Assembly (NCBI GenBank): GCA_963702095.1
Contig: OY969706.1
Location: forward strand, 2,144,001-2,208,000
Source: Candidatus Bathyarchaeota archaeon
Lineage (GTDB): Archaea; Thermoproteota; Bathyarchaeia; Bathyarchaeales; Bathycorpusculaceae
Direction of reading: 5' to 3'
DNA length: 64,000 nucleotides
Shown: in pieces, positions 5,676 to 47,310 of the stretch
Numbering within the stretch: position 1 is the stretch's first letter
How the letters are laid out: each line of letters begins with the position of its first letter
Notes under the pieces: model-generated
Told to the model about the DNA's origin: nothing
Database searches by the model: none
What the model saw: only the letters and a program-made list of their open reading frames with translations
Made by a program: the position numbers and the translations under genes

Positions 5676-6511
5676 TTGGGTTTAGAACAAGAAGCAGAAA
5701 CCGAACAGACACAGACAGAGAAAACAAGCGCGCCAGCACCCAGCCGCTCAATCTGGTCAGGCTCAATCACAATTGGACTCGTCAACGTCCCAGTCAAACT
5801 TTACTCGATGATTTACGATAAAGGCATCGCATTCCATTTCCTGCACAAAACCGACGGTCAACCAATCAAGTATGTGAAAGTCTGTGTTAAAGAAGACAAA
5901 GTCGTGCCTTGGAACGAGATTGCTAGGGGTTACCAAGTCTCCAAAGACGAGTACTTGCTGTTTGATAAAAGCGAGTTGGATGCTGTTCGCCCCGAATCGG
6001 ACAAGCGTATTCGCATCAGTAAATTCGTCGATTATTTCTCAGTAGACCCCATTTACTTTGACCGCACCTATGCATTGTTGCCAGACAAAAGCAAAGACGC
6101 CTACAGCCTGCTACTCAATGCGCTGGAGAAAACCAACAAGGCGGGGCCGGGCGAATTACCTTGCGTACTAAAGAGTACCCGGCGTTGCTGCATACTTACA
6201 AGGGTGCATTGGTTCTTACGACGCTGCGGTATGCCTATGACGTGGTGGACCCCCATGATTTTGATAAACTTCAGAAGTTACCTGAGCCCCAGAAAGCCGA
6301 AGAGGACTTAGCCGTCAAAATCGTCAAGGACCTCTCAGGCGACTTCGACATCGCCGAATTCAAAGACACCTACATGGAGCGGGTGCAAGAACTCGTAGAC
6401 CAAAAGTTGAAGGGTGAAAAAATCCATGTGGAGAAACCGCCAGAAGTAGAAGCTAAAGGACTCATGGTTGCACTGCGGGATACGCTTAAGCAGCTGGAAC
6501 AGCAGAAATGA
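5676..6511 (+). CDS. ku: Ku DNA end-binding protein (split by a 1-nt deletion in a G run at ~6143-6146)
   Basis: RSIWSGSITIGLVNVPVKLY, DPIYFDRTY and FKDTY motifs. Adding one G joins ORFs 5676 and 6161 as NKAGAGRITLRTKEY. Confidence 0.9.
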
Positions 6512-7986
6512 GCCGAAGCCACCACTACAAACCCATGCTTGCAAAAGCTACAGAGCAAGCGTTTACGGATAGCGACTGGATTTTTGAGGTTAAATGGGAT
6601 GGTTTCCGTGCAATCACCTATATCGAGGAGCCATTAAGCATCCAAAGCCGCAACGGCAAAGAACTTAAACAAAACTTCCCCGAACTCGAACAACTTACTC
6701 ATCTTGCAAGCAACATCGTGGTGGACGGCGAAATCGTCGTCATGCAGGAAGGCACCCCCGACTTCCAAACCTTGCTCAAACGCGGCCAAGCAGTCTCCAA
6801 AGGCGAAATCCAGCGACAAGCCCAGCGCGCCCCCGCAGTCTACATCGTCTTTGACATTCTCGAAAAAGACGGCAACCCCCTCACCCAAATGCCGCTTACA
6901 GAGCGCAAAACCATCCTAAAAGACAGCCTCAAAGAAGGCGCCAACGTAGTCCTCTGCGACTACATCGAAGAAAAAGGCGAAGACTACTTCGGGCTGGTTT
7001 TACAGAAGGGCCTGGAGGGAGTGGTGGCGAAACGCAAAGACAGCCGCTATGAGGAAGGCTTGCGGACAGGGAATTGGCTAAAGATTAAGAAGCTAAAAAC
7101 CTGCGACTGCATCATCTTCGGCTACACCCATGGCCAAAATGTTCGCCAAGAAACCTTTGGCGCCCTGCTCTTGGGGCTCTACAACCAAAAAAAGCAGTCG
7201 GTCTACGTTGGCAAGGTAGGCACAGGCTTCACCGAGCAAATGCTCCGCCTCCTCATGGATAAATTCGAAAAAATAATCACTAAGGAACCACCGTTCAGAG
7301 CCGAGAGCGGCGACGTAGTCACGTGGCTGCAGCCCAAACTCGTTTGCGAGGTCGCTTATCAAGTTGTAACAAAGGATGGAAGGTTGAGAATGGCACGTTT
7401 CAAACGGTTAAGAGACGATAAACCCCCAGAACAATGCACCATAGACCAATTGACGCAGGTCCAACCCAAAACTGAGACGCCCGTGGCACCCCAAAATCCA
7501 AAACAAGCCGAGCTACCAGCAGACGAAAAACTCTCCCAATATGCCTCCAAACGCAACTTCCAAGAAACCCCCGAACCCAAAGGCACCAAAGAAAACAAAG
7601 AACCCCTAATCTACGTCATACAAGAACACAACGCCCGACGCCTCCACTGGGACCTCCGACTTGAAAACGGCGGCGTCCTGAAAAGCTGGGCGGTTCCCAA
7701 AGGTATCCCCGAAGAAACTAAAGTGCGCCACTTAGCTGTGGAAACTGAAGACCACCCCTATGAATACGCCAGTTTCGAAGGCACAATTCCCAAGGGGCAA
7801 TACGGTGCTGGGACAGTGAAAATCTGGGATAAGGGGCATTATGAGGCTAAAGTTTGGGAGAAAGACAAAATAGAAGTAAGGCTTGACGGCGAACGCCTGC
7901 ACGGGAACTACGTTTTGGTGCGGCTCAAGAAGTCTGAGAACCAGAAGGATTGGTTGCTGCTCAAGGGAAAAGACAGCCATGGCTAA
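6508..7986 (+). CDS. ligD: LigD-type ATP-dependent DNA ligase with C-terminal 3'-phosphoesterase domain (LIG-PE)
   Basis: EVKWDGFR, DGE, EGVVAK, WLKIK, GKVGTGF; then a PE domain YASKRNF..TPEP..QEHNARRLHWDLRLE..SWAVPKG..YGAG. Confidence 0.92.
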   Translation: MSRSHHYKPMLAKATEQAFTDSDWIFEVKWDGFRAITYIEEPLSIQSRNGKELKQNFPELEQLTHLASNIVVDGEIVVMQEGTPDFQTLLKRGQAVSKGEIQRQAQRAPAVYIVFDILEKDGNPLTQMPLTERKTILKDSLKEGANVVLCDYIEEKGEDYFGLVLQKGLEGVVAKRKDSRYEEGLRTGNWLKIKKLKTCDCIIFGYTHGQNVRQETFGALLLGLYNQKKQSVYVGKVGTGFTEQMLRLLMDKFEKIITKEPPFRAESGDVVTWLQPKLVCEVAYQVVTKDGRLRMARFKRLRDDKPPEQCTIDQLTQVQPKTETPVAPQNPKQAELPADEKLSQYASKRNFQETPEPKGTKENKEPLIYVIQEHNARRLHWDLRLENGGVLKSWAVPKGIPEETKVRHLAVETEDHPYEYASFEGTIPKGQYGAGTVKIWDKGHYEAKVWEKDKIEVRLDGERLHGNYVLVRLKKSENQKDWLLLKGKDSHG

Positions 7987-33925: not shown

Positions 33926-36591
33926 ATGAGCAGTTTACCTTTCGATGCCACAACGTTTGAACACCTTAAGGACGTAGTCTTAGTCCTTGATGAATCTCTT
34001 AACATAGCATTTTTGAATGCATTTGCTGCTGACTTCTTTGAGACGAAACAAAAAGAGATCTTGGCGAAAAGGCGCATTTAATTTTCCAAGATGATTGGTT
34101 ATCGTCTGAACAAGAACAAACTGCGAAATCAGCCCTTATAGAGGATGGTTCATGGTCTGGCAACAGAGTATATGTTAAAAGAAATGGTAAACGAACTATA
34201 GCGTTTACAGCGATTACTATCATAAAAGATTCTTTAGGAAGACAGCGTGGTAGCATCCAAATAATTCACCCGCTCAAAGATGGTTCAGAGCAAGAATTGA
34301 TGGTAGGCAACGATGTGCTAAGCAAAAAAATGGATTTGCTTCTAGCCCCTAACATAGACATTGATAGGCAGCAATTGGCAAACCTGCTTGATGCTGAAGC
34401 GTTGCAGTCTATGATGGATGACCTTTACTCAGTAACAAAAACCGGTTTTGCAATAATAGACTTGAAAGGTAACGTTTTAGCTGCCGCAGGTTGGCAGGAT
34501 ATATGTACTAAATTCCATCGAGTTAACCCTATGACACTTTGGAACTGCTTGGAAAGCGACCTTGTGCTTACTGAAGGGGTTCGACCTGGAGAATTTAGGA
34601 CTTACAAGTGCAAGAATAACATGTGCGATATTGTTACACCTATTTTTATTGGAAAAAAACATGTCGGCAACCTTTTCTCCGGTCAATTCTTCTTTGACGA
34701 TGAAACGGTTGATAGGGAAGCATTCGCCAAGCAGGCAGAACTTTATGGCTTTGACAAGGCAGCTTATATGGAAGCGTTAGATAGGGTTCCACGTTGGAAC
34801 CGAGTCGTTGTACAAAATCTCATGCGGTTCTATTCTAAACTTTCAGGAATGATTTCGAAGCTAAGCTATACAAATCTAAAGTTATCTAAAACCTTAGTAG
34901 ACCAGCGACTAATTGAGCGAGAACTCAGAGACAGCCAGCATGATTTGAACCGAGCGCAGAGTGTTGCCAAAACTGGCAGTTGGCGTTTAAACATCCAGAG
35001 TAACCAGTTATTATGGTCTGATGAAACCTATCGCTTGTTCCAGGTTCCTAAGGGTACACCTCTCAACTATGAAAGCTTTCTAAAGTTCGTCCATCCGGAA
35101 GATAGGGAAATGGTGAACCGAGCATGGAAAGCTGCACTTCGTGGACAAGGCTATGACATAGAACATAGAATCCTCGTTGAAGACAAAATCTCTTGGGTAA
35201 GAGAGAAGGCTGAATTGGAGTTTGCGGAAGATGGATCGCTCGTATCTGGTTTCGGCACGGTCCAAGACATTTCAGAACGCAAGATAAATGAACATAAACT
35301 TCGGCGACTTAATCGCGCATTGAGGGCAATTAGTAATAGCAACCAAGTACTCATGCGGGCGACCGATGAAGCTGCATTTCTACAGCAGGGCTGCAGAATA
35401 ATTGTCGAAGATTGTGGCTACAAGCTTGTTTGGATCGGCTTTGCAGAAGAAAATGAGGAAAAAACTGTTAAGCCCATGGCATACGCTGGATTCGATCAAG
35501 GATATATTGACGCACTCAAAATATGCTGGGCAGATAACGAACGTGGAAGGGGACCAACGGGCAGAGCAATACGAACTGCAAAACCTCAAATATGCAATGA
35601 CTTGGAAAGTGACCCTACCTTTGCGCCTTGGCGAAAGGCGGCGCTTGAAAGAGGTTACGCTTCATCGATCGTGCTTCCGTTAATATCTGAGGGCAGAGCT
35701 TTTGGTGCACTAAACATATATTCACACCAGCAAAGCGCCTTTTCAGACGATGAAATTAAGCTACTTGTAGAATTAGCAAGCGATTTATCATATGGTATAA
35801 CGTTGCTTCGTACTCGTGCAGCCGCTAAGAAGACGCAGGCAGCTTTGCGTGACAGTGAAGAACGGTTCTCTAAAGCTTTTAGTGAAAACCCTGCTGCAGT
35901 AGCCATCACAAGGCTAATAGATGGGCGATACCTTGATGTCAATCAAAACTTTCTCGATCTTTTCGGTTATACGCGTGAGGAAGTGGTCGATCACACTTCG
36001 ACTGAATTAAATATTTTCGTTGATCCAGTCAGCCGTGAGGATTTCTTAGAAATTATAAACAAGAGTGGAAAGGTCCGCAACTTTGAGATGACATTTAGAA
36101 ATAAAAAAGGCATGAATATACCCACTTTGCTTTCGGTTGAAAAACTGGTGCTAAATGGTGAAGATCACATTATCAGTACATTAATCGATATTACCGAACG
36201 TAAAGGTGTAGAAAATGCGATAAGTAAAGCAAAAGAAGAGTGGGAACGCACCTTCGACGCTTTGCCGGACCTTATAGCTATAATCGACTACAATCACCGT
36301 GTTCTTAGAGTTAACAAAGCTATGGCAGAACACTTAGGGGTTAAACCTGAGTATTGCTTTGGACTGAAATGTTATCAATGCGTTCACGGTTGTAACTTGC
36401 CGCCAGAATTCTGTCCCCACACTAAAACCCTCCAAGATGGTGAACAGCACACAGCGGAAGTTCATGAGGAAAGACTTGGGGGTGACTTCCTTGTAACCAC
36501 AACACCCTTAAGAGACGGCGACGGCCGAATCTTCGCTTCCGTCCATGTCGCACGAGACATAAATAGACACAAGAACACGCCTAAAAAATAA
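33926..36591 (+). CDS. multi-sensor protein PAS-PocR-PAS-GAF-PAS-PAS with no recognisable output domain (1-nt deletion at ~34060)
   Basis: PocR (GWQDICTKFHR..C..SD..YKC..GQFF), PAS (WSDETYRLF..VHPEDR), GAF (GRGPTGRAIR), further PAS domains. An extra N-terminal PAS from ATG 33926 joins the 34297 ORF if one base is added. Confidence 0.85.
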
Positions 36592-36978: not shown

Positions 36979-38922
36979 ATGGAATCTGAATTGATTCTGC
37001 TGATACTGGCTTCGGCATTAATCCTAATAGATATAACCTTATCATCAGCATCCAAGCCTCCTTTCAAGCGGTTGAGCAAATACACAGTTGTTCTTAGTTC
37101 ACTTGCATTTATCCTAATTTTATCGTCTTACATTCACCTTCTCTTCGCTTTCGTCAACAATGATTTTTCTTTTTCAAGTGTCTACTCTTTTAGCTCCTCA
37201 AGCCTGCCGCTGCTATCGAAAGTTTATGCCAGCTGGGCTGGTGCAGGAGGTTCGATGCTTCTGTTATCACTCATCTTAAGCCTGTTCTACTTTGGCACCA
37301 AATTAGCAGTATATAGAAAAACCGAAAAACTCCAAACCATTTCCAGTCAGATCTTAGGGTTTGTTGTTCTGATATTTCTAATTGTTACTCTGCTAAGAAA
37401 CCCATTTGAACGTTTATCTGTAGCCGCAGTTGAAGGATTAGGACTCAATCCCCAACTTCAAAGCCCTTGGATGGCAATTCACCCTCCGATAGTTTTTTCA
37501 GCTTATGCATTTGTTGTATTAGCCTTCGCCTTAACACTTGCCAGCTTACGCACTAACCAAGACTTAGAAAAAAATAGCCTTTTTAAAATTTCCACCTATG
37601 CCTCATGGATCCTTCTAACTATCGGAATAGCGTTAGGAGGTGTGTGGGCGTATGCTGTTTTAGGCTGGGGAGGATACTGGGCGTGGGACCCAGTGGAAAC
37701 CGCTTCGCTGCTACCGTGGCTTATTTTGACCGCTTACTTCATATCAAAAACGATTTCTAAAAACAAGAATAGTTTGACACAGCAGTCGATGATTATGTTA
37801 ACTTTTGCTAGCTTAGTTTTCTTAAGTGCTCTGGCACGAGGCGGTTTAACTCAATCTGTACATTCGTATGCGGTGTCGGCGATTGGTCCAGTAATGCTTT
37901 CTTTTGGAGCGGTAATGATGGGTCTATTCGGTTTCTTCGCGAAAAGCAAAGCCAAGCCGTTTCTGAAACTCGAATTCAACCGTGCCTCCCTGATTTCGCG
38001 GTCATCCTACGTCGGCTTTTGGGCGTTAATCCTTATCTCGATCGTTTGCCTAATGGGGTTGGCTTTCAGTGATTTCCCATATAGTCTTCTAACTTACCCT
38101 TTTGTGCTGTTGTTTGTTGTTGCGCTCGTCGGTTTCAGTTTAGACGATAAAACGCATTACGCCCGGCAGTTCCTCATTGTAGTTGCCTCCCTTATTGTAG
38201 GGGTTGTCCTCTCGGTAGTCGGATTTGCCTCAGTGAATGTTTTGCTAACCTTAACAGTGCCCATTTTTGTTGCCGTCCTATCATTGTTACTCTACAGGAT
38301 TGCCAAAGATACTCGACGTAAATCGATTGTTTGGCAACGTCTCTTCGGTTTAGCCGTGATAATCATGTTGCTGGGCGTATTTTTCAGCGCAGGCGCTAAA
38401 ACATCGGCCACCCTCACAGACTTAAAACCTAACGTACCTACTACCGTTTTAGACGGCACCATTGAGGTTTCTAACATAAAAATCGTAAACGCTACTTCGC
38501 AAGTTTACAATAGCCAAGCCCAAAAAGTGATTCCCCAGTACTCCATGGTCACCGCCAATGTAATCATACACCAATCAGGAACCACCTATAGCGGAGAGGT
38601 TTCAGCCAGCTTCTATCCCAACTACGGCTTAGTGCTAAATCCTCTTATCATCAACACTGTCTCAGGCGATGTCTATGTACACTTGGAGGCCACAAAAGAA
38701 CTTTACAACATATTAACTGCTCAGCTAACAGGAAACAGCACTATACCTGAAACCATGACATTGAATGTACAGAGAATCCCTCTGGTTTATTTTGTTTGGG
38801 TAGGTGTTGTCTTGATGGTTGTTTCAATGGTTATCGAATGCATACACGACTTTCATCAAACTAGAAAGCAACAAAAACTGTTAACCAAAACTGATATGCA
38901 ACATATAATACAAGACGCCTAA
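36979..38922 (+). CDS. ccmF: cytochrome c maturation haem lyase CcmF-like protein
   Basis: GLNPQLQ..MAIHPP, WWD motif WAY.VLGWGGYWAWDPVETASLLPW, SVHSY. Confidence 0.88.
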   Translation: MESELILLILASALILIDITLSSASKPPFKRLSKYTVVLSSLAFILILSSYIHLLFAFVNNDFSFSSVYSFSSSSLPLLSKVYASWAGAGGSMLLLSLILSLFYFGTKLAVYRKTEKLQTISSQILGFVVLIFLIVTLLRNPFERLSVAAVEGLGLNPQLQSPWMAIHPPIVFSAYAFVVLAFALTLASLRTNQDLEKNSLFKISTYASWILLTIGIALGGVWAYAVLGWGGYWAWDPVETASLLPWLILTAYFISKTISKNKNSLTQQSMIMLTFASLVFLSALARGGLTQSVHSYAVSAIGPVMLSFGAVMMGLFGFFAKSKAKPFLKLEFNRASLISRSSYVGFWALILISIVCLMGLAFSDFPYSLLTYPFVLLFVVALVGFSLDDKTHYARQFLIVVASLIVGVVLSVVGFASVNVLLTLTVPIFVAVLSLLLYRIAKDTRRKSIVWQRLFGLAVIIMLLGVFFSAGAKTSATLTDLKPNVPTTVLDGTIEVSNIKIVNATSQVYNSQAQKVIPQYSMVTANVIIHQSGTTYSGEVSASFYPNYGLVLNPLIINTVSGDVYVHLEATKELYNILTAQLTGNSTIPETMTLNVQRIPLVYFVWVGVVLMVVSMVIECIHDFHQTRKQQKLLTKTDMQHIIQDA

Positions 38923-39321
38923 AGCTAAAGCAAGAAGCCAAAACGCAAGAATTCGCCACATCAGCTTTTTTCTTGGAGCACAATATGTGGTGCTGCTTGA
39001 CTCGTTAATTGCCCAAATCCAAACTAACCCCACACCTAACAAAACCGAAACAACTCCAATCAAGCCATGTATAACGCCTGACAAAGCCACATAATTAAAA
39101 CTGAATAACGTTTCGGAAACGGCGGAAACAAAGGAGGGTCCCATATGGGCAATCACCAGCAATACGGTAATTATCATGACTACCATCATTGAGTTTCCAT
39201 GCCAAACCCACTTCTTTTTCCTCTCCAAATACAGGCTTAAACCCACTATGCATAGAGCCCCAACTAAAAGGGCTATGTTAACCTCTGCCATCCACTCGTG
39301 AACTATTTCGTAGGTAACCAT
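38881..39321 (-). CDS. His-rich 4-TM membrane protein (DUF420-like)
   Basis: Four hydrophobic helices with WHG, AHMG, IHGLIG and LHI; divergent from ccoN. Confidence 0.6.
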   Translation of the reverse strand: MVTYEIVHEWMAEVNIALLVGALCIVGLSLYLERKKKWVWHGNSMMVVMIITVLLVIAHMGPSFVSAVSETLFSFNYVALSGVIHGLIGVVSVLLGVGLVWIWAINESSSTTYCAPRKKLMWRILAFWLLALALGVLYYMLHISFG

Positions 39322-39441
39322 GTCTTTTTCGCTTGCCTAATAGGTATTTTTTGATTTAAAAGAATTTCATCTGTTTTTTAAAATAATTAAGCTTAAAAGG
39401 GATTGATCGGTTTAATAGTTTACTGGTTAGCAGTTTAGGGT

Positions 39442-40890
39442 TTGGCTATGGCGGCGGCAGAAAAGGAGAAGGGACCAGAAGGCGTTAGTAGCAAAGATTC
39501 TGTAGACTTAAAAACCGCTGATTCGGTGGCGAAATACTGGTGGTACTCGGCGCTTCTGTGGTTCCCAGTTTTCACAACCTTCGGCATGATTATGGCTATA
39601 AAATTCTTTTACCCAACTTTCATGGTTGACTCCGCTTGGGATACTTTTGGTCGCATAAGACCCGCGCATGTTAACGGTTTACTCTTTGGGTTCCTCTCTT
39701 CAGGTTTAATCGGCGCCATGTACTATGTAACGCCAAGACTAAGTCACGTATCTCTGTATAAGCCTATAATTGGGAAAATCTCAGCGGGTTTGTGGAACAT
39801 AGCGGTTTTATTGGGAGTACTTCTGATTTTAGGCGGTAATACCCAAGCAAGAGAATATGCTGAAATGCCCTGGGTGATCGACGTTTTAATTGTTGCGACC
39901 CTAATCTTGATAGGCATAACAATTGTCGGAACAATCATCAAACGTAAAGAACGCAGGCTCTACGTGAGCCTCTGGTTCTTTGCCGCTATTTTCCTCTGGT
40001 TCCCCATCGTTTACTTCATAGGGAATGTAATGTGGAACCCCCCATCAGGTGCTCTCTTTGGGCTAACTGACGCCATAGTTAACTGGTTCTATGGACACAA
40101 CGTTTTAGGCTTCTGGTTTACGCCATTTGGCTTAGCCCTGTGGTACTACTTTATTCCAAAATTATCAAAACGCGCCCTCTACAGCGTCACACTTTCGCTG
40201 ATCAGTTTCTTCGCTTTAGCTTTCTTCTACACAGGCGTCGGAGGACACCACTTGCTCCAATCCTCAATCCCTGAATGGCTAAAAACAATCGCAGTCGCCA
40301 CCAGCGGGTTAATGATGCTTTCAGTTTTGACCTTCGCTACAAACATCGGCATGACCCTTCGTGGCACATGGAAGGAAATCATGAGCAACGTGCCGCTTCG
40401 GTTCATAGTTTTTGGTTTCATATGTTATATTTTCGTCTCGATTCAGGGTACATTCCAAGCCCTCCGAGACATGAACATCTACCTACACTACTCACAGTGG
40501 ACAGTCATGCACTCACATTTGGCGCTGTACGCTTCGTTCGGGATCACCATAATGGGTATTATGTTTTGGGCAATCCCTAGAGTGACTCAAAAACCGCTTT
40601 ACAGCAAAAAACTCATGGATATAACTTGGTGGGTTTCACTGCTGGGCTTTGTAATCTTTATGTTAGGTATGATGCTTGCTGGTTTAGTAGCTAATGCCAA
40701 CTGGTTCACTCATCAAACAATCGCCCAAACGCTTCCAACGCTTGAACCCTATTTCATGGTTCGAGCCATCGGCGGAGGCATTGTAGTTGTTTCAGCGTTC
40801 TTATTCGCCATAAACATCATAATGACCATAATCTCCAAACAACACTCGCCGTCAGTGGTTGAGAACAAAACAGAGGTGAAGCAACCATGA
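39442..40890 (+). CDS. ccoN: cbb3-type (C-family) haem-copper oxidase subunit I
   Basis: FGRIRPAHVN, EYAEMPW, WFYGHN, YTGVGGHH (helix-VII Tyr), WTVMHSHL; all six ligand His present. Confidence 0.92.
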   Translation: MAMAAAEKEKGPEGVSSKDSVDLKTADSVAKYWWYSALLWFPVFTTFGMIMAIKFFYPTFMVDSAWDTFGRIRPAHVNGLLFGFLSSGLIGAMYYVTPRLSHVSLYKPIIGKISAGLWNIAVLLGVLLILGGNTQAREYAEMPWVIDVLIVATLILIGITIVGTIIKRKERRLYVSLWFFAAIFLWFPIVYFIGNVMWNPPSGALFGLTDAIVNWFYGHNVLGFWFTPFGLALWYYFIPKLSKRALYSVTLSLISFFALAFFYTGVGGHHLLQSSIPEWLKTIAVATSGLMMLSVLTFATNIGMTLRGTWKEIMSNVPLRFIVFGFICYIFVSIQGTFQALRDMNIYLHYSQWTVMHSHLALYASFGITIMGIMFWAIPRVTQKPLYSKKLMDITWWVSLLGFVIFMLGMMLAGLVANANWFTHQTIAQTLPTLEPYFMVRAIGGGIVVVSAFLFAINIIMTIISKQHSPSVVENKTEVKQP

Positions 40891-42476
40891 CAGACTTAGA
40901 AAAGAAGCTTGAACAGCAACTAGAAAAAATCGAAAATGCAGCCGCCCAGCAAATTAAGACAATGAGTAAAAAAACCACGATACGAAACTTGTTTCCGATA
41001 GCAGCCGGGGGATTAGCGGTCTTTTTGCTTATGGTTAGCATGGTTGTGGTTGCACCCTACATGTTTCTACTTGATGTTCCAGCATCTGACACTGCCCATC
41101 CCTACACCACACAGGAACAGGAAGGTAGAACCCTTTTCATGAGTTTAGGCTGTTTTTACTGCCACTCACAACAGGTTAGAGCTGCTGATTGGGGTTTAGG
41201 TAACGTTTCACAAGAAGGCGATTATGTGTACGATAGCCCCCACGCTTTGGGCACAGAACGTACGGGACCCGATCTAGCTCAAATAGGGGGTATGCGACCG
41301 ACGATTTGGCATCACTTGCACGACCGAGACCCCCGAAGTGTTAGCCCCGGCTCGATCATGCCAAACTTTAACTTTTTAACAGACGAGCAAATTGATGCAC
41401 TAACCGCTTACATCCAGAATTTAGGTCAAGAAAATCTCCAAGTACAAGAGTCAATCACCAACGGTTCTTCCTACCACCCTGTTGTGCCAGAAAATTACTT
41501 TAACGTAACAAACCAATTTGCACCCATTTATTTAGATGTCTTATCAGAGTATGACGCTGGAAACGACGTCTTCAACGGAAACGCTTCAATTGCGGACCAA
41601 TGGGCTGCAATATACGACGTCGCCAAAGCAGACTACACTGCACGTTGCCTGCCCTGCCACGGTTGCTCGGGAAACGCTCAAGGACCCTACGCCCGCCATG
41701 TAGTCACTCAACCTGCTAACCTTCATGAACGCATAGCAACTTTCCCCGGTGATAATTACCATATTTGGCGAGTAACCGAAGGCGTTCCCGGAACGGCAAT
41801 GCCCGCATGGGGTTTAACACTTAACGATACAGCGATACAGATGATTGCCATCTACGAGATGAGTTTCGTTTTCGGCTCCGCAAGAACCATCGATGGCGGA
41901 ATCTCCGACGCAGAAGGCGACGCCTTCGCCCAATCGACCCTCAACTCGCCACCGATAGCTGGTACACAACAGGAGTTTCAAGCAGGAAACGACATCTTTA
42001 ATCTTTATTGTGCCCAATGCCACGGTATGGACGGGCAAGGCGATGGACCTGCATCTGGAGAAGTGCCTAGTGGGTACATAGTTCCGGTTCCGGCTAACTT
42101 TACAGAGTCAGGAAGCGACTTTCAAATGTATGGAAGATATGTATGGAAAGTAAAAGAGGGTGTTGAAACAACCAACATGCCCCCTTGGAAATACTCCTTA
42201 ACTGACGATGAAATCTACCAAGCAGTATTCTATGTCCAAAGTTTCTCTACCCCCCAAGACTACAACACCAAGTGGGGACCACAATACAGTGACCCATTTG
42301 CACAAAACCTAAAAATCAGCCAAACTGGAATAAGTGTCAATCCAGTTGCAGCTCTGATTCTGTTGGCTGCTCTTGTCTTGTGGGATAAAAAGTTCAACCA
42401 AGAAAAAATCAGGGTACAAAAGTGCCGCCAGAAAATGTTTGCAAACTCTTGTGGCTATAGGAGGTTTAGCTTTTGA
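40887..42476 (+). CDS. ccoO: CcoO fused to two additional cytochrome c domains (trihaem)
   Basis: GCFYCHSQQVR, GTERTGPDL, PGSIMP; then CLPCH..TAMPAW and CAQCH..TNMPPW. Confidence 0.9.
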   Translation: MTDLEKKLEQQLEKIENAAAQQIKTMSKKTTIRNLFPIAAGGLAVFLLMVSMVVVAPYMFLLDVPASDTAHPYTTQEQEGRTLFMSLGCFYCHSQQVRAADWGLGNVSQEGDYVYDSPHALGTERTGPDLAQIGGMRPTIWHHLHDRDPRSVSPGSIMPNFNFLTDEQIDALTAYIQNLGQENLQVQESITNGSSYHPVVPENYFNVTNQFAPIYLDVLSEYDAGNDVFNGNASIADQWAAIYDVAKADYTARCLPCHGCSGNAQGPYARHVVTQPANLHERIATFPGDNYHIWRVTEGVPGTAMPAWGLTLNDTAIQMIAIYEMSFVFGSARTIDGGISDAEGDAFAQSTLNSPPIAGTQQEFQAGNDIFNLYCAQCHGMDGQGDGPASGEVPSGYIVPVPANFTESGSDFQMYGRYVWKVKEGVETTNMPPWKYSLTDDEIYQAVFYVQSFSTPQDYNTKWGPQYSDPFAQNLKISQTGISVNPVAALILLAALVLWDKKFNQEKIRVQKCRQKMFANSCGYRRFSF

Positions 42477-42625
42477 ATTTTGACATGTTAATCTATACCA
42501 TCGGCGCTTTAATGATTACGTTGATCACAGCGGGTTTTGTTGTTTGGTCTTTTAAAACTAAACAGTTCGAATCAAACGATTTTCTCCGCTACTACCCACT
42601 TGAGGAGGATGAAGACCAACAGTGA
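42473..42625 (+). CDS. ccoS: CcoS/FixS-like cbb3 assembly peptide (not in ORF track)
   Basis: (MNFD)MLIYTIGALMITLITAGFVVWSFKTKQFESNDFLRYYPLEEDEDQQ* fits the CcoS pattern TM-FxWxxxxxQF...acidic tail; SD AGGAGG upstream; overlaps both neighbours. Confidence 0.7.
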   Translation: MNFDMLIYTIGALMITLITAGFVVWSFKTKQFESNDFLRYYPLEEDEDQQ

Positions 42626-42906
42626 GCTATCTTCCCCCAGTAAAAATCGTCGAGTTAGCTCCCAACGATGTGTACTTAGCCCTGTTCTTAATCGCTGCTG
42701 TAATAATAGCAATCATCTTGATTATCAGAAGCTCTGATGAATACTCTGTTGAGGAAACAGAGAAAAACTCTGAAGAATTCGCTGGAGTAATCCGCGACTC
42801 TAAGGGACCTGTTACCAAATGGCTATGGGCAGTTTACATTGTTTTGATTATTTGGGCTTTGGCGTATTTAGTTCAGCATTGGAGCGAATTTGCGGTCTTC
42901 CCGTAG
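42622..42906 (+). CDS. small membrane protein resembling the CcoP/FixP N-terminal anchor
   Basis: EEFAGVIRDSKGPVTKWLWAVYIVLIIWALAYL resembles the FixP_N pattern (HEWDGIxExxNPLPRWW...FxxGY); no CxxCH. Confidence 0.62.
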   Translation: MSYLPPVKIVELAPNDVYLALFLIAAVIIAIILIIRSSDEYSVEETEKNSEEFAGVIRDSKGPVTKWLWAVYIVLIIWALAYLVQHWSEFAVFP

Positions 42907-44690: not shown

Positions 44691-44876
44691 CTCCTCGGCT
44701 CTGCCATAGAAGTAGTCGACGCTACAACCCCTATGACGACTACTACCAGTAAAAATAGTACCGAACGATTTTTACAGTAGAAAAAGTGCAAATTTTGCCT
44801 CTTTCTTTTTCTTTTCAATACATTGGATTTCTATTTGAACCCACTGTTATATGTGGGTCCACGGCCAAAAGTCAAT
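44691..44876. repeat. direct repeat R2, copy A
   Basis: 44811-44855 is identical (45 nt) to 47108-47152; flanks align with mismatches. Confidence 0.9.
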
Positions 44877-44920: not shown

Positions 44921-45754
44921 CTAGAATGGCGCGAATACTCCGATAAATACCAGCCATGCCAGTGCCGTTTTGGCGACAAAACTAAGCACGATGTATGTTC
45001 TTTCGCCGTAAAGATAATCCTTCCAGCGACCTACACCTTTGTATTGCAATACCATGTTGAGAGCAAATACATTGAACACTGCAAAGTAAACGAGTAATAT
45101 CGAGTATACAAAGGCGGGCGGCTCAACGCCTGTTGAGGTAATTGCTGCTACGAAATAGGCAAATAGCACCACCCATGGGATACCTCCTGAAACGCAGCCC
45201 ACCACAAACGCTGACCACGAAGTTTTTTCGGTATGCTGATTTACTACTTCCATGTAGTATCCGAACATTATCATCATGGCGTTTAAAGTGAAGATCATAA
45301 CTAGCGACCAGAAGTCCCAGACACCTACGAATGTGGCAATTAGTACAATCATTATTGAGCTGGAAAGGGCGTACTCGTACCACCGGTATGGGTTCATCCC
45401 TTTCGCCAAGTTTTTGTTATAGTCCTTGTTTTTTGGAAAAGCGATAATGAAATGCGCTAATGCTGAAAGTAACGGAAATGCTGCAACGATTACTCCCAGA
45501 TAGCTTAGTGTAAACCAGACTTGAGGGTCAGGTGCGATATTAAAGACAGGTGGCGATCCAGGGGTTATGTCGAGTTTAAGGTAAAATGTGTATATGTCTT
45601 GTTCCCAAATTAAAAGTGTGCCTAGAACGAGCATTATTATTCCCTGTGATAAGTGTAGGATTCCAGCACCCAAATTGAATTTCTTTAAGTAACCAAATGA
45701 AATAGGCGATTTTGCTATTATCTCCTGTCTTTCCTTATAATTCAACATTTCCAC
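44921..45754 (-). CDS. heliorhodopsin
   Basis: FNLGAGILHLSQ, SALAH, NPYRWYEYALSSSIM, GERTYIVLSFVAK (retinal Lys in SxxAK). Confidence 0.93.
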   Translation of the reverse strand: MEMLNYKERQEIIAKSPISFGYLKKFNLGAGILHLSQGIIMLVLGTLLIWEQDIYTFYLKLDITPGSPPVFNIAPDPQVWFTLSYLGVIVAAFPLLSALAHFIIAFPKNKDYNKNLAKGMNPYRWYEYALSSSIMIVLIATFVGVWDFWSLVMIFTLNAMMIMFGYYMEVVNQHTEKTSWSAFVVGCVSGGIPWVVLFAYFVAAITSTGVEPPAFVYSILLVYFAVFNVFALNMVLQYKGVGRWKDYLYGERTYIVLSFVAKTALAWLVFIGVFAPF

Positions 45755-45839: not shown

Positions 45840-46271
45840 TTAATGCGCCATTTCCATCGGTGGTATCAAAACTTTATCGATGGCATGAATTACGCCGTTG
45901 TCTGTCACTATATCCGCTTTTACTATGTGGGCATCGTTAACTTTAGGCATACTATGGCCATGCCACGTAGACGCATCGATTCTTATATCTTCACCTTCAA
46001 CTGTTTTCGCAGTTTTAAGCTTAGCTACCTCTGAGGAAGTAACTTTACCAGCAACAACATGATATGTTAAGATTGATTTAAGCTTTGGAATATCTTTAAG
46101 GAGATTCTCAACTGTTCCCTTAGGCAGTTTCTCGAAAGCATCATCTGTTGGAGCAAAGACTGTAAATGGGCCGGGACTCTTTAGTGTCTCAACTAATCCG
46201 GCAGCCTGAACAGCAGTCACCAATGTTTTGAAATTGCCCGCGGATATTGCAGTGTCGACAATATCAACCAT
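45840..46271 (-). CDS. fasciclin (FAS1) domain protein without signal peptide
   Basis: [25 protein letters not shown] and [11 protein letters not shown] motifs; SD GGAGGTG at 46281-46287. Confidence 0.92.
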
Positions 46272-46427
46272 AAAACTCTTCACCTCCTAATGATTGACTA
46301 AATTTTCAATCCCGTATTCGCAAGTTTAACAAATAAAAATATGTGATTACATAAGATCAGTCACATTGACAATTTAGTCTTGCTTCTTAATTGTAGTTGG
46401 AGACATATCCAGTAGTTTTTTGATGGG

Positions 46428-46979
46428 TTGATTATGGTTCAAAGTGCAAAGTATCAAGTTGTAAGGAAATTAGGCAAAGTGCAAATTCGGCGTTACCCAA
46501 AAATAGTGATAGCAAAAGTTTCGAACCTTGAGTTAGATAATTTTGGGCTCCTTTTCCGTTTCATATCAGGAAACAACAAGCAAAAAGCAAAAGTAAAAAT
46601 GACGGCGCCTGTCGTTTCACAAGATACATCTCAAGAAATAAAGATGACATCACCCGTTTTATCCGAATTCTCCCGTCAAGGTTACATGGCTTTTGTTATG
46701 CCTTCTGAACTAAATCTGGAAACTACGCCCCTGCCTCTAGATAGCCGTATCAAGATAGAAGAGGTTCCCTCAAGGTTAGTTGCGGCATTGCGTTTCTCCG
46801 GAAGCTGGTCTGAAGATCACTTTGAAGAAAAAACCAGAGAGCTACTACAAGAGCTAGCTAACGCAAACATAACAACAAAAGGCACCGTCTTTACCATGCT
46901 GTACAATCCACCTTTTACTCCAAGCTTTCTAAGAAGAAATGAAGTAGCAATCGAGGTTGAGCATACAAGCGAACCTTGA
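46428..46979 (+). CDS. SOUL haem-binding protein
   Basis: IRRYP, LFRFISGNN, KMTAPV, MAFVMP, RFSG and YNPPFTP.FLRRNEV motifs. Confidence 0.92.
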   Translation: MIMVQSAKYQVVRKLGKVQIRRYPKIVIAKVSNLELDNFGLLFRFISGNNKQKAKVKMTAPVVSQDTSQEIKMTSPVLSEFSRQGYMAFVMPSELNLETTPLPLDSRIKIEEVPSRLVAALRFSGSWSEDHFEEKTRELLQELANANITTKGTVFTMLYNPPFTPSFLRRNEVAIEVEHTSEP

Positions 46980-46988
46980 CTGTATCAC

Positions 46989-47310
46989 CTCCCGGTATCT
47001 GTCATAGAAGTAGACGATGCACACTATCTAAACGACTACTACCATCAAAACAGCACCGAACGATTTCTATAGTAGAAGAAGAAGTGCAATTTTTCCTCTT
47101 TCTTCTTCTTTTCAATACATTGGATTTCTATTTGAACCCACTGTTATATGTGCGTCCAAGCAAAAAGTCAATGGGCCTTTTTTGGTTTAGAAGTAGTAGT
47201 TGAACAAAGAAAATATCCTGTACTACTACTTCTGAGATAAACCAACAAGCGCAGCTTCTTTTATTATTGCAGGTAGTAGTCGTCGATAGGCTGCTAAAGA
47301 CTACTATTTC
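46989..47310. repeat. direct repeat R2, copy B, extended into an array of GTAGT/ACTAC dyads
   Basis: Homologous to copy A over 46989-47172; perfect 12-bp inverted repeats at 47189-47200/47222-47233 and 47032-47043/47272-47283. Confidence 0.85.

What the first reader, a model, noticed from the sequence alone, without database searches (positions are those of the whole stretch)
39442..42906. Rearranged cbb3-type oxygen reductase operon in an archaeon
Seen: four genes with overlapping stop/start codons. They encode CcoN with all six His ligands and the helix-VII Tyr (YxxxxxHH), CcoO carrying two extra CxxCH domains, a CcoS-like peptide missed by the ORF track, and a 94-aa protein resembling only the CcoP N-terminal membrane anchor. 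Known: bacterial cbb3 oxidases are usually CcoNO(Q)P with the dihaem domains on CcoP; they are high-affinity O2 reductases and to my knowledge uncommon in archaea. Inference: CcoP has been split, with its dihaem function moved onto CcoO and its anchor kept as a free subunit. This would give microaerobic respiration or O2 scavenging to a lineage usually treated as anaerobic. No bc1 or alternative complex III is in the window, so the electron donor is unknown.
Basis: partly seen in the sequence, partly recalled or inferred. Interest (0 to 1): 0.88.

Follow-up and report, generated by a model that had tools for sequence, protein, structure and literature searches.

The report
cbb3-type oxygen reductase module in Bathyarchaeia
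A soil archaeon from a group usually regarded as anaerobic carries an intact, well-conserved gene set for a bacterial-type high-affinity oxygen-reducing enzyme, in an unusual subunit layout that it shares with many anaerobic bacteria and methane-cycling archaea.

Summary
Four overlapping genes at 39442-42906 encode:
- CcoN, with all six His ligands and the helix-VII Tyr;
- CcoO carrying two extra cytochrome c domains (three CxxCH in all);
- a 50-aa CcoS-like peptide;
- a 94-aa homologue of the CcoP membrane anchor.

The host is a Bathyarchaeia genome assembled as one 2.94-Mb contig, so a chimeric contig is very unlikely.

The gene order equals canonical ccoN-O-Q-P, so nothing is rearranged. 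The layout is not peculiar to this archaeon. It defines a clade in which Dehalococcoidia, Clostridia, Syntrophales and Methanoperedens hold CcoN-CcoO-dihaem as one polypeptide, followed by the same two small genes. Homology does not show that the extra haem domains came from CcoP.

Features specific to Bathyarchaeia are separate N and O genes, a C-terminal hydrophobic tail on CcoO, and an adjacent CcmF-like haem lyase and DUF420 protein.

In the whole genome I found no cytochrome b, NrfD module, cupredoxin, cytochrome bd or other cytochrome c. CODH/ACS is present. Oxygen scavenging with an unknown electron donor is therefore the likeliest role.

The scan found this module before on other DNA (e1-4225174; fused form e1-2250659 and e1-2223330). 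My literature searches found no description of it.

The parts
36979..38922 (+). CcmF/NrfE-like haem lyase (647 aa). It is the only Cytochrom_C_asm-family gene found in the genome and the presumed maturase of the three c-haems of CcoO.
   Evidence: PF01578 105 bits; TIGR00353 183 bits, below its cut-off of 569. Single hit in the own genome and no CcmE. Present in 20 of 21 Bathyarchaeia loci. Full-length type present in 3 of 3 oxidase-positive and 0 of 12 oxidase-negative genus mates listed in both surveys.
38881..39321 (-). Divergently transcribed 146-aa, four-helix membrane protein, DUF420-like, with four invariant His.
   Evidence: DUF420 E=0.05 alone. 10 of 18 orthologues match DUF420, best E 4.4e-6. 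Atlas: 29 of 30 hits in clusters carrying DUF420, score 0.95. Present in 20 of 21 Bathyarchaeia loci and 0 of 59 others. H41, H59, H85 and H142 invariant.
39322..39441 (.). AT-rich 120-bp divergent intergenic region, presumed to hold the promoters of both transcription units (inference only).
   Evidence: Sequence read. No promoter test was done.
39442..40890 (+). CcoN, catalytic subunit I of a C-family haem-copper oxygen reductase (482 aa).
   Evidence: COX1 263 bits. 224 bits to 3mk7_A and 9g6b_A against 31-34 bits to NorB. Six His plus Tyr263 aligned to the P. stutzeri ligands and invariant in 39 sequences. dN/dS 0.04-0.06.
40887..42476 (+). CcoO fused to two further class-I cytochrome c domains (529 aa, CxxCH at 89, 254 and 375). 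It has an N-terminal anchor and a Bathyarchaeia-specific C-terminal hydrophobic segment with a basic tail.
   Evidence: FixO 119.9 bits; NF011054 138 bits, below its cut-off of 447. The dihaem part gives 64 bits to 6h5l_B and 29 bits to CcoP 3mk7_C. Hydrophobic segments at 32-50 and 480-498; the tail is absent from the six fused proteins checked.
42473..42625 (+). 50-aa single-helix CcoS/FixS-like peptide, sitting where ccoQ lies in canonical operons.
   Evidence: FixS in 29 of 32 homologues, FixQ in 17 of 32; ccoS TIGR00847 in 24 of 32. Conserved between O (or the fusion) and the anchor gene in 15 of 15 Bathyarchaeia and 24 of 28 tier-2 loci examined. dN/dS 0.01-0.05.
42622..42906 (+). 94-aa two-helix protein homologous to the N-terminal membrane anchor of CcoP (FixP_N). 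It has no haem motif.
   Evidence: FixP_N 22.6 bits; 24 of 44 homologues match. The profile's top three PDB hits are CcoP anchors. G62, W78 and Y82 invariant. Position 59 is acidic in 44 of 44. Predicted docking on CcoN: ipSAE 0.80 against best control 0.00.

Best explanation
This is a working C-family (cbb3-type) haem-copper oxygen reductase. It belongs to a distinct, so far uncharacterised subfamily and sits in a six-gene module that Bathyarchaeia carry as an accessory trait.

Proposed mechanism:
- The CcmF-like lyase attaches three c-haems to the outward-facing CcoO-dihaem subunit (inferred).
- Electrons enter through these haems, pass to the low-spin haem b of CcoN, and then to the haem b3-CuB centre. 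There O2 is reduced to water with the help of Tyr263, cross-linked to His219 (inferred from conserved residues).
- The 94-aa two-helix protein binds CcoN as the CcoP anchor does in solved enzymes. It places an always-acidic residue (D59) at the cytoplasmic loop that touches the invariant Y247/S248 of CcoN. This is probably the mouth of the single proton channel (that role is recalled, not checked here).
- The 50-aa CcoS-like peptide assists cofactor insertion into CcoN, as CcoS is annotated to do.

The genome keeps CODH/ACS, and I found no bc1, ACIII-type module, soluble cytochrome c, cupredoxin or second oxidase. The most likely role is therefore scavenging of intruding O2, perhaps with some energy gain, in oxic-anoxic soil niches. 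The electron donor is not yet identified.
For: Catalytic identity:
- COX1 263 bits.
- 224 bits to solved CcoN against 31-34 bits to NorB.
- All six His and the Tyr are aligned to the P. stutzeri ligands and invariant in 39 sequences.
- PMC11214002 (passages) states that O2 reduction requires this tyrosine and that the NOR and N2O-reductase families lack it.

Subunits:
- FixO plus two cytochrome c domains.
- FixS in 29 of 32 homologues.
- FixP_N in 24 of 44 homologues, with PDB profile hits to CcoP anchors.
- The complex model scored 0.80 in three runs against 0.00 for the best of 3 controls. That mark was reached by 58 of 80 solved complexes and 2 of 110 mismatched pairs. Runs agree in at least 75% of contacts and partner pLDDT is at least 72. 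Solved cbb3 structures exist, so this may partly reflect likeness.

Selection and conservation:
- dN/dS 0.01-0.13 for all four genes.
- All four genes are in order in 18 of 21 Bathyarchaeia loci; the other 3 are cut by contig ends.

Genuine host:
- One 2.94-Mb contig.
- The same module lies on 0.7-2.7 Mb contigs of other MAGs.

Context:
- It is the only COX1 hit in the genome, and there is no cytochrome bd.
- CdhC is present at 214 bits.
- Precedent for O2 scavenging by cbb3 in an anaerobe: Scalindua, PMC13253579 (abstract in the listing; passages).
Against: - No electron donor was found in the whole genome: no cytochrome b PF00033; only two small Rieske proteins without cytochrome b neighbours; no NrfD; no cupredoxin PF00127; no MqnA/D. 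No other ORF has three or more CxxCH, and the single two-CxxCH ORF is a DnaJ-type zinc finger.
- Haem c maturation would rest on one stand-alone CcmF-like protein, without CcmE or a second Cytochrom_C_asm gene.
- CcoN scores 273.6 bits on the NCBIfam ccoN equivalog, below its cut-off of 583.
- Two positions differ from P. stutzeri: H243 is Ser255 here and E323 is Gln335. Gln at this position is nearly invariant in the 39-sequence alignment.
- Both small proteins are individually below Pfam cut-offs.
- The genome is 90% complete and shows probable frameshifts elsewhere, so absences are not proof.
- There are no expression data.
Confidence: 0.72

Rival explanations
1. The enzyme mainly reduces nitric oxide or another small oxidant rather than O2, serving in NO detoxification.
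For: PMC11214002 (passages) states that C-family oxidases can reduce NO and that NORs evolved repeatedly from oxygen reductases. This subfamily is divergent (273.6 bits against the 583 cut-off) and replaces the residues aligned to E323 and H243 of P. stutzeri.
Against: The Tyr and the three CuB histidines are invariant. Similarity to NorB is only 31-34 bits, against 224 bits to CcoN. By the criterion quoted in PMC11214002, the NOR-type families lack the tyrosine.
Confidence: 0.08
2. The cassette is a horizontally acquired passenger that cannot be matured or fed with electrons in this host, so it is functionally silent.
For: No donor chain, no CcmE or CcmC, and no quinone-pathway marker were found. 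Distribution is patchy: 6 of 41 genomes of the genus and 11 of 401 of the class. Several MAGs show broken copies (L009, L015, L049).
Against: dN/dS is 0.01-0.13 for all four genes, including the 50-aa and 94-aa ORFs. The Bathyarchaeia sequences form one clade down to about 72% identity, which implies long retention. The lyase and the DUF420 gene co-occur with the oxidase. The broken copies lie in long-read MAGs that are prone to indels.
Confidence: 0.1
3. The block is bacterial DNA wrongly joined to an archaeal contig, or the separate N and O genes are an assembly frameshift in a fused gene.
For: The nearest non-Bathyarchaeia relatives are mostly bacterial. The assembly shows genes split between frames elsewhere.
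Against: The genome is a single 2,937,366-bp contig, with archaeal ribosomal and transcription genes in the same window. The module lies on contigs of up to 2.68 Mb in other Bathyarchaeia MAGs. Its GC of 0.441 is at the 18th percentile of genome windows. The N/O boundary recurs in 15 of 15 complete loci, including short-read assemblies.
Confidence: 0.02

Closest known systems
Canonical bacterial cbb3 oxidase CcoNOQP (Pseudomonas stutzeri 3MK7/5DJQ; entries 8SMR, 8SNH, 9G6B)
   Same: Same catalytic subunit fold and ligands (H60, H207, Y251, H257, H258, H345, H347 equivalents). A FixO-type monohaem subunit. Three c-haems in total. A two-helix anchor homologous to the CcoP N-terminus. Gene order N, O, small peptide, P.
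   Different: The two further haem domains sit on CcoO, not on the anchor protein. The anchor is a free 94-aa protein. The small peptide is closer to CcoS than to CcoQ (29 against 17 of 32). CcoN reaches only 273.6 bits on the ccoN equivalog, against 720-814 bits for canonical copies. The residue aligned to E323 is Gln.
Single-chain CcoN-CcoO-dihaem fusion of anaerobes (Dehalococcoidia, Clostridia, Desulfosporosinus, Syntrophales, Methanoperedens, Methanolobus). It is partly covered by NCBIfam NF011053 and NF011054, 'putative bifunctional'.
   Same: 50-57% identity in both the N and O parts. Three CxxCH. The same CcoS-like and FixP_N-like genes lie downstream. Together with the Bathyarchaeia sequences it forms one clade (SH-aLRT 98).
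   Different: N and O are one polypeptide of 879-977 aa. There is no C-terminal hydrophobic tail in the six checked. There is no adjacent full-length CcmF-like or DUF420 gene; 5 of 31 loci have only short partial Cytochrom_C_asm hits.
CcoN plus five-haem CcoO type of Anaerolineae, Coriobacteriia and some Alphaproteobacteria MAGs
   Same: Separate N and O genes; CcoO is extended by cytochrome c domains; 40-47% identity to this CcoN.
   Different: Five CxxCH in 23 of 28 loci. No FixP_N-like gene at E<=1e-5 in 0 of 28 loci. It lies outside the clade that holds this enzyme.
cNOR/qNOR nitric oxide reductases
   Same: Same superfamily branch; a cytochrome c partner subunit.
   Different: Only 31-34 bits to NorB structures. 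This protein keeps the active-site Tyr, which NORs lack according to PMC11214002.
Cytochrome c oxidases reported in the soil Bathyarchaeia genus Houtuousia (PMC10321748)
   Same: Haem-copper oxidases in Bathyarchaeia, read as adaptation to (micro)oxic soil.
   Different: The paper describes them as resembling those of Sulfolobus, in MAGs lacking the Wood-Ljungdahl pathway, and has 0 occurrences of 'cbb3' or 'ccoN' in its main text. In my class survey a separate genus (g120, 19 genomes) holds oxidases only 24-31% identical to this CcoN. Equating g120 with Houtuousia is my guess. The present genome keeps CdhC.

Membership tests
C-family (cbb3-type) haem-copper oxygen reductase, subunit CcoN | Six histidine ligands for haem b, haem b3 and CuB | tested here: met
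   H76, H219, H269, H270, H357 and H359 align to H60, H207, H257, H258, H345 and H347 of 3mk7_A. They are invariant in 39 sequences.
C-family (cbb3-type) haem-copper oxygen reductase, subunit CcoN | Active-site tyrosine on helix VII, six residues before the HH pair | tested here: met
   Y263 aligns to Y251 of 3mk7_A and is invariant.
C-family (cbb3-type) haem-copper oxygen reductase, subunit CcoN | Closer to CcoN than to NorB or to A/B-type subunit I | tested here: met
   189-224 bits to five cbb3 structures, 45-54 bits to ba3-type, 31-34 bits to NorB. It groups with canonical CcoN in the tree.
C-family (cbb3-type) haem-copper oxygen reductase, subunit CcoN | Score above the curated NCBIfam equivalog cut-off (TIGR00780) | tested here: not met
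   273.6 bits against cut-off 583.15. The whole subfamily is below it (272-294 bits), while canonical copies score 720-814 bits.
C-family (cbb3-type) haem-copper oxygen reductase, subunit CcoN | Adjacent FixO-type monohaem subunit | tested here: met
   FixO 119.9 bits, above the cut-off of 29.6, in the next ORF.
C-family (cbb3-type) haem-copper oxygen reductase, subunit CcoN | High-affinity O2 reduction with proton pumping | not testable with these tools
   This needs the enzyme.
CcoP (FixP) dihaem subunit | N-terminal two-helix anchor (FixP_N) | tested here: inconclusive
   This protein scores 22.6 bits against cut-off 24.9. 24 of 44 homologues match at E<=0.01. The profile's top three PDB hits are CcoP anchors, E 0.004-0.015.
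CcoP (FixP) dihaem subunit | Two cytochrome c domains on the same polypeptide as the anchor | tested here: not met
   94 aa with no CxxCH. It is an anchor-only homologue, not a CcoP.
CcoS/FixS maturation peptide | Match to the family models | tested here: inconclusive
   This peptide scores 14.9 bits against cut-off 23.1, and 13.3 against 28.35 for TIGR00847. Among homologues, 29 of 32 match FixS (best 5.4e-10), 24 of 32 match ccoS, and 17 of 32 also match FixQ.
CcoS/FixS maturation peptide | Requirement for cofactor insertion into CcoN | not testable with these tools
   This needs genetics or biochemistry.
cNOR/qNOR | No active-site tyrosine; FeB site with an extra ligand | tested here: not met
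   The Tyr is present and invariant; only 31-34 bits to NorB. The FeB ligand itself was not examined.
System I haem lyase CcmF/NrfE | Cytochrom_C_asm domain together with partners CcmC and CcmE | tested here: not met
   The domain is present at 105 bits but TIGR00353 gives 183 bits against cut-off 569. There is no second PF01578 gene and no CcmE in the genome (genome 90% complete).

The most novel reading that the evidence does not exclude
The six genes form a self-sufficient, transferable oxygen-consuming unit. Its trihaem subunit is the cell's only c-type cytochrome. A single stand-alone CcmF-like protein matures it without the rest of the Ccm system. It is fed by an unrecognised donor rather than a bc1/ACIII-cytochrome c chain. 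That donor could be a new membrane partner, such as the histidine-rich DUF420 protein, or reductants at the cell surface. The unit would let Wood-Ljungdahl-dependent archaea burn off O2 and possibly conserve energy.
Probability: 0.25. Interest if true: 0.8.

Novelty: new variant of a known kind. Interest (0 to 1): 0.55.

Why it matters
Bathyarchaeia are among the most abundant archaea in sediments and soils and are modelled as strict anaerobes.

- **Lineage ecology.** A conserved, selected high-affinity oxygen reductase sits in a lineage that still carries CODH/ACS. This suggests that some soil members tolerate or exploit trace oxygen, which affects how their niche and carbon turnover are interpreted.
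- **Enzymology.** The subfamily redistributes the cbb3 parts: haem domains on CcoO, a free CcoP anchor, and a CcoS-like peptide in the structural operon. The anchor-only protein keeps an always-acidic loop residue. This offers a natural experiment on what the CcoP anchor does apart from carrying haems.
- **Respiratory chain.** The apparent lack of any known electron-donor chain, and of a full cytochrome c maturation system, makes two open questions directly testable: how such oxidases are fed in 'anaerobes', and whether a CcmF-like protein can work alone.

Tried and rejected
- **Chimeric contig.** Rejected: one 2.94-Mb contig, archaeal genes in the same window, and the same module on large contigs of other MAGs.
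- **Recent transfer seen in composition or flanking repeats.** Not seen. Module GC is 0.441 against a genome mean of 0.468 (SD 0.031), the 18th percentile. No repeats bracket the module; the only repeats found bracket the heliorhodopsin cassette.
- **NOR or N2O-reductase reading.** Rejected on the Tyr and on similarity scores.
- **Electron donors.** Searches of the own genome found no PF00033, PF03916, PF00127, PF01654 or PF02621. The two Rieske genes and the two-CxxCH ORF were inspected and dismissed.
- **AhbD (TIGR04545) survey.** Uninformative. All 111 genomes gave radical-SAM cross-matches and none passed the cut-off of 500 bits. G000's best was 435.6 bits.
- **Secondary fission of a fused ancestor.** Favoured by the quick ML tree. 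The AU test gave p 0.248 with a log-likelihood difference of 17.3, so it is not established. The test needed three runs.
- **Dihaem domains derived from CcoP.** Not supported: 29 bits to CcoP against 64 bits to 6h5l_B.
- **Expression.** No RNA holder was listed.
- **Role of CcoP Glu49.** Recalled from the P. stutzeri structure paper, which I did not see. One search and passages of PMC10556555 did not confirm it.
- **Literature on this layout or on cbb3 in Bathyarchaeia or Methanoperedens.** Searches were. I read passages of PMC12694404, PMC13503563, PMC13502194, PMC10321748, PMC11214002, PMC13253579, PMC11650866, PMC10386581, PMC8280799 and PMC10556555. All other papers were seen as listings only. 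None describes it. Supplements are closed, so the tables of PMC10321748 and the datasets of PMC11214002 may list such genes.

Full report
**What is there.**
The + strand holds four ORFs: 39442-40890 (482 aa), 40887-42476 (529 aa), 42473-42625 (50 aa) and 42622-42906 (94 aa). Each overlaps the next by 4 nt.

The first is a haem-copper oxidase subunit I (Pfam COX1, 263 bits). Among solved structures it matches five cbb3 CcoN chains at 189-224 bits, ba3-type subunits at 45-54 bits and NorB at 31-34 bits.

In the alignment to P. stutzeri 3mk7_A, H76, H219, Y263, H269, H270, H357 and H359 fall on H60, H207, Y251, H257, H258, H345 and H347. All seven are invariant in an alignment of 39 CcoN sequences that includes two canonical ones. 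Two positions differ from P. stutzeri: H243 is Ser255 here and E323 is Gln335. Gln at that position is nearly invariant in the alignment.

The second ORF has a FixO domain (119.9 bits, residues 44-177) followed by two class-I cytochrome c domains. CxxCH motifs lie at residues 89, 254 and 375.

**The two small ORFs.**
On their own both are below the curated cut-offs: FixS 14.9 against 23.1 bits, and FixP_N 22.6 against 24.9 bits.

- *The 50-aa peptide.* A small ORF lies between CcoO (or the fusion) and the anchor gene in 15 of 15 Bathyarchaeia loci and 24 of 28 loci of the nearest clade that I examined. It carries a conserved tryptophan, a Gly-Gln-Phe motif and acidic residues after its single helix. 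Of 32 such peptides, 29 match Pfam FixS (best E 5.4e-10), 17 also match FixQ, and 24 match the NCBIfam ccoS equivalog.
- *The 94-aa protein.* Of 44 homologues, 24 match FixP_N. A profile of the 44 has the N-terminal anchors of CcoP in 8snh_G, 8smr_G and 3mk7_C as its three best PDB hits. These hits have E 0.004-0.015 and are collinear with CcoP residues about 5-76. G62, W78 and Y82 are invariant. The position aligned to Glu49 of 8snh_G is Asp or Glu in 44 of 44.

A complex prediction of CcoN with the 94-aa protein scored 0.80 in three runs, against 0.00 for the best of three controls. That mark was reached by 58 of 80 solved complexes and 2 of 110 mismatched pairs. The runs agree in at least 75% of contacts and partner pLDDT is at least 72. 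The loop 53-65 lies against CcoN 244-252, and the second helix lies against CcoN 282-300. Because cbb3 structures are solved, this pass may reflect likeness and does not prove that this copy binds.

All four genes show dN/dS of 0.01-0.13 against the three closest orthologues. Synonymous sites are saturated for most pairs with the three more distant ones.

**Host and authenticity.**
The window encodes archaeal L11, L1 and L10P with the L10P insert, Spt5-NGN, RNase P Rpr2 and archaeal D-aminoacyl-tRNA deacylase. It lies at 2,144,001-2,208,000 of a genome assembled as a single 2,937,366-bp contig, 90% complete and 4% contaminated.

A scan of species-representative genomes returned 173 relatives, of which the best 80 were kept. 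Of these, 21 loci at 72-93% identity come from MAGs titled Bathyarchaeota, Bathyarchaeia or uncultured archaeon, several on contigs of 0.7-2.7 Mb. Module GC (0.441) is at the 18th percentile of genome windows, and no repeats flank the module. A chimeric contig is therefore very unlikely.

**The layout is a family trait.**
Comparing the four proteins with all + strand ORFs of the 80 loci gave three patterns:

| Group | Loci | Layout |
|---|---|---|
| Bathyarchaeia | 21 | N, O, S, P in the same order in 18; the other 3 are cut inside CcoN by contig ends. O or N is shortened in L009, L015 and L049, probably by indels. |
| Nearest clade, 47-57% identity (Dehalococcoidia, Chloroflexia, Clostridia, Desulfosporosinus, Syntrophales, Thermoleophilia, Methanolobus, Methanoperedens and two 'LFW' archaea) | 31 | One ORF of 879-977 aa joins CcoN, CcoO and the dihaem part (three CxxCH) in 29. 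The anchor gene follows in 28. The 3 loci without an anchor gene are all cut by contig ends. |
| Third group, 40-47% identity (Anaerolineae, Coriobacteriia and others) | 28 | Separate N, and an O with five CxxCH in 23. No anchor gene at E<=1e-5. |

The gene order here equals that of ccoNOQP. NCBIfam already holds 'putative bifunctional' models that partly cover such proteins (NF011053, NF011054).

The extra haem domains are not specifically CcoP-like. Residues 200-480 give 64 bits to the dihaem cytochrome 6h5l_B and 29 bits to CcoP 3mk7_C.

**Phylogeny.**
I built a quick IQ-TREE of 68 CcoN sequences over 484 columns, with canonical CcoN from two alphaproteobacterial genomes and distant oxidases as outgroups.

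- Bathyarchaeia form one clade (SH-aLRT 100).
- That clade is sister to the mainly bacterial fused clade (93), and both sit inside a clade with the Methanoperedens fused proteins (98 on both nodes).
- Canonical CcoN and the five-haem type lie outside.

This topology would make the separate N and O genes a secondary fission. However, the AU test does not reject a tree with all 29 fused proteins as one clade (log-likelihood difference 17.3, p 0.248). The direction therefore stays open. Either way, the clade mixes bacteria and two archaeal phyla, which points to horizontal transfer.

**What is specific to Bathyarchaeia.**
- Separate N and O genes.
- A C-terminal hydrophobic segment with a basic tail on CcoO. 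It is recognisable in all 14 Bathyarchaeia proteins inspected, passes my hydropathy threshold in 6, and is absent from the 6 fused proteins inspected.
- Two extra genes upstream, each present in 20 of 21 loci:
  - a 647-aa CcmF/NrfE-like protein;
  - a divergent 146-aa four-helix protein.

The 146-aa protein is DUF420-like. 10 of 18 orthologues match DUF420 (best E 4.4e-6). In the Atlas, 29 of 30 hits fall in clusters carrying DUF420. Four His are invariant.

The flanks are not conserved. Of the window's ORFs of 80 aa or more between 29 and 49 kb, only those of the module have hits in more than one Bathyarchaeia locus.

**Distribution.**
In a sample of 401 genomes of the class, 11 hold a clear orthologue (64-100% identity, E<=1e-184). 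Six of these are among the 41 genomes of the window's genus. A further 22 genomes have only weak matches (24-31% identity), 19 of them in one other genus. That other genus may correspond to the published Houtuousia oxidases; this is my guess.

The full-length CcmF-like gene occurs in 8 of 61 genomes of the genus. Among genomes listed in both surveys, it is present in 3 of 3 oxidase-positive genomes (G000, G309, G352), next to the oxidase in each, and in 0 of 12 oxidase-negative ones. In the wider family it passes the cut-off in 5 of 111 genomes. Two of those hits contain stop codons.

**Physiological context in this genome.**
- The oxidase is the only COX1 hit, and there is no cytochrome bd.
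- I found no cytochrome b, NrfD-type subunit, plastocyanin-type cupredoxin, MqnA/D, CcmE or second Cytochrom_C_asm gene.
- Of 7,631 ORFs of 70 aa or more, 45 contain CxxCH. Only the CcoO fusion has three. The one ORF with two is a DnaJ-type zinc finger.
- The two Rieske proteins are small and lack cytochrome b neighbours.
- A complex-I-like antiporter module exists, but each of its three genes matches in two pieces.
- CdhC of CODH/ACS is present at 214 bits.

All absences carry the caveat of 90% completeness and probable indel errors.

Together this suggests an anaerobe-type core metabolism with one bolted-on oxygen reductase whose electron donor is unknown.

**Literature.**
- PMC10321748 (passages) reports cytochrome c oxidases only in the soil genus Houtuousia. 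It likens them to Sulfolobus and links them to loss of the Wood-Ljungdahl pathway. 'cbb3' and 'ccoN' do not occur in its main text.
- The review PMC12694404 repeats this (passages).
- PMC11214002 (passages) notes a sparse distribution of C-family oxygen reductases in Archaea and gives the tyrosine as the mark of oxygen reduction.
- PMC13253579 (abstract in the listing; passages) shows oxygen reduction and strong cco expression in the anammox bacterium Scalindua. This is a precedent for scavenging by an anaerobe.
- PMC10556555 (passages) treats CcoQ as an assembly factor that is absent from mature cbb3.

None of the papers found by the searches describes this layout or a cbb3 oxidase in Bathyarchaeia, as far as I read them: passages of ten papers, listings for the rest. 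Supplements were closed.

Public sources name homologues of the 94-aa protein 'hypothetical protein' in all cases but one where a name is given. Only 2 of 55 carry a precomputed FixP_N domain.

**Earlier scan notes.**
The same module in another Bathyarchaeia genome (e1-4225174) and the fused form (e1-2250659, e1-2223330) were reported before, with the same verdicts. I reached my reading before seeing them.

**Verdict.**
This is a real, selected C-family oxygen reductase in a new subunit arrangement. The arrangement is shared across domains, with additions specific to Bathyarchaeia. It is a new variant of a known kind. The most interesting open points are the missing electron donor and the stand-alone haem lyase.

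Noticed in passing
window 36979-38922: The CcmF/NrfE-like gene is the only Cytochrom_C_asm-family gene in the genome, and no CcmE was found. Within the genus the full-length form occurs only together with the oxidase, in the genomes I could cross-check. It may be a single-protein cytochrome c maturation system.
   Followed up: partly
window 38881-39321 (- strand): A DUF420-like four-helix membrane protein with four invariant histidines and one invariant cysteine. It is conserved next to the oxidase in Bathyarchaeia only. It could be an assembly factor or a redox partner.
   Followed up: partly
window 42320-42476 (C-terminus of the CcoO fusion): All Bathyarchaeia CcoO proteins inspected end in a hydrophobic segment followed by a basic tail, which the fused bacterial and Methanoperedens proteins lack. 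This may be a second membrane anchor for the haem domains.
   Followed up: partly
window 44752-44861 and 47047-47158: Direct repeats (71 nt at 96% identity and 35 nt at 86%) bracket a heliorhodopsin (44921-45754), a fasciclin-domain gene (45840-46283) and a SOUL haem-binding gene (46428-46979).
   Followed up: partly
G000:C1:1431104-1435553: Three complex-I/Mrp-type antiporter genes each match the Pfam model in two adjoining pieces in different frames. This suggests indel errors in the long-read assembly, or pseudogenes. Broken CcoN or CcoO ORFs in L009, L015 and L049 look similar.
   Followed up: no
L015 and L051 (same contig CAVZJV010000014.1, about 0.8 Mb apart): One Bathyarchaeia MAG carries two copies of the whole module. 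One copy has a shortened CcoO.
   Followed up: no
L023 (Methanolobus MAG) and L027 (Gudongella, Bacillota): Their fused oxidases are sister sequences with short branches (SH-aLRT 100). This means either very recent inter-domain transfer or a binning error.
   Followed up: no
window 5676-7986: A Ku-domain gene lies next to a LigD-type ATP-dependent ligase with a phosphoesterase domain. This is a bacterial-style end-joining pair in an archaeal genome.
   Followed up: no
window 34297-36591: A large PocR-PAS-GAF-PAS sensor protein, with no output domain detected by Pfam, lies just upstream of the module. It is not conserved next to the module in other Bathyarchaeia loci (0 of 21).
   Followed up: partly
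G000:C1:1240315-1242415: Two adjacent radical-SAM genes match the AhbD haem synthase model (435.6 and 233.7 bits, cut-off 500). They are candidates for archaeal haem b synthesis, but the result is inconclusive.
   Followed up: no
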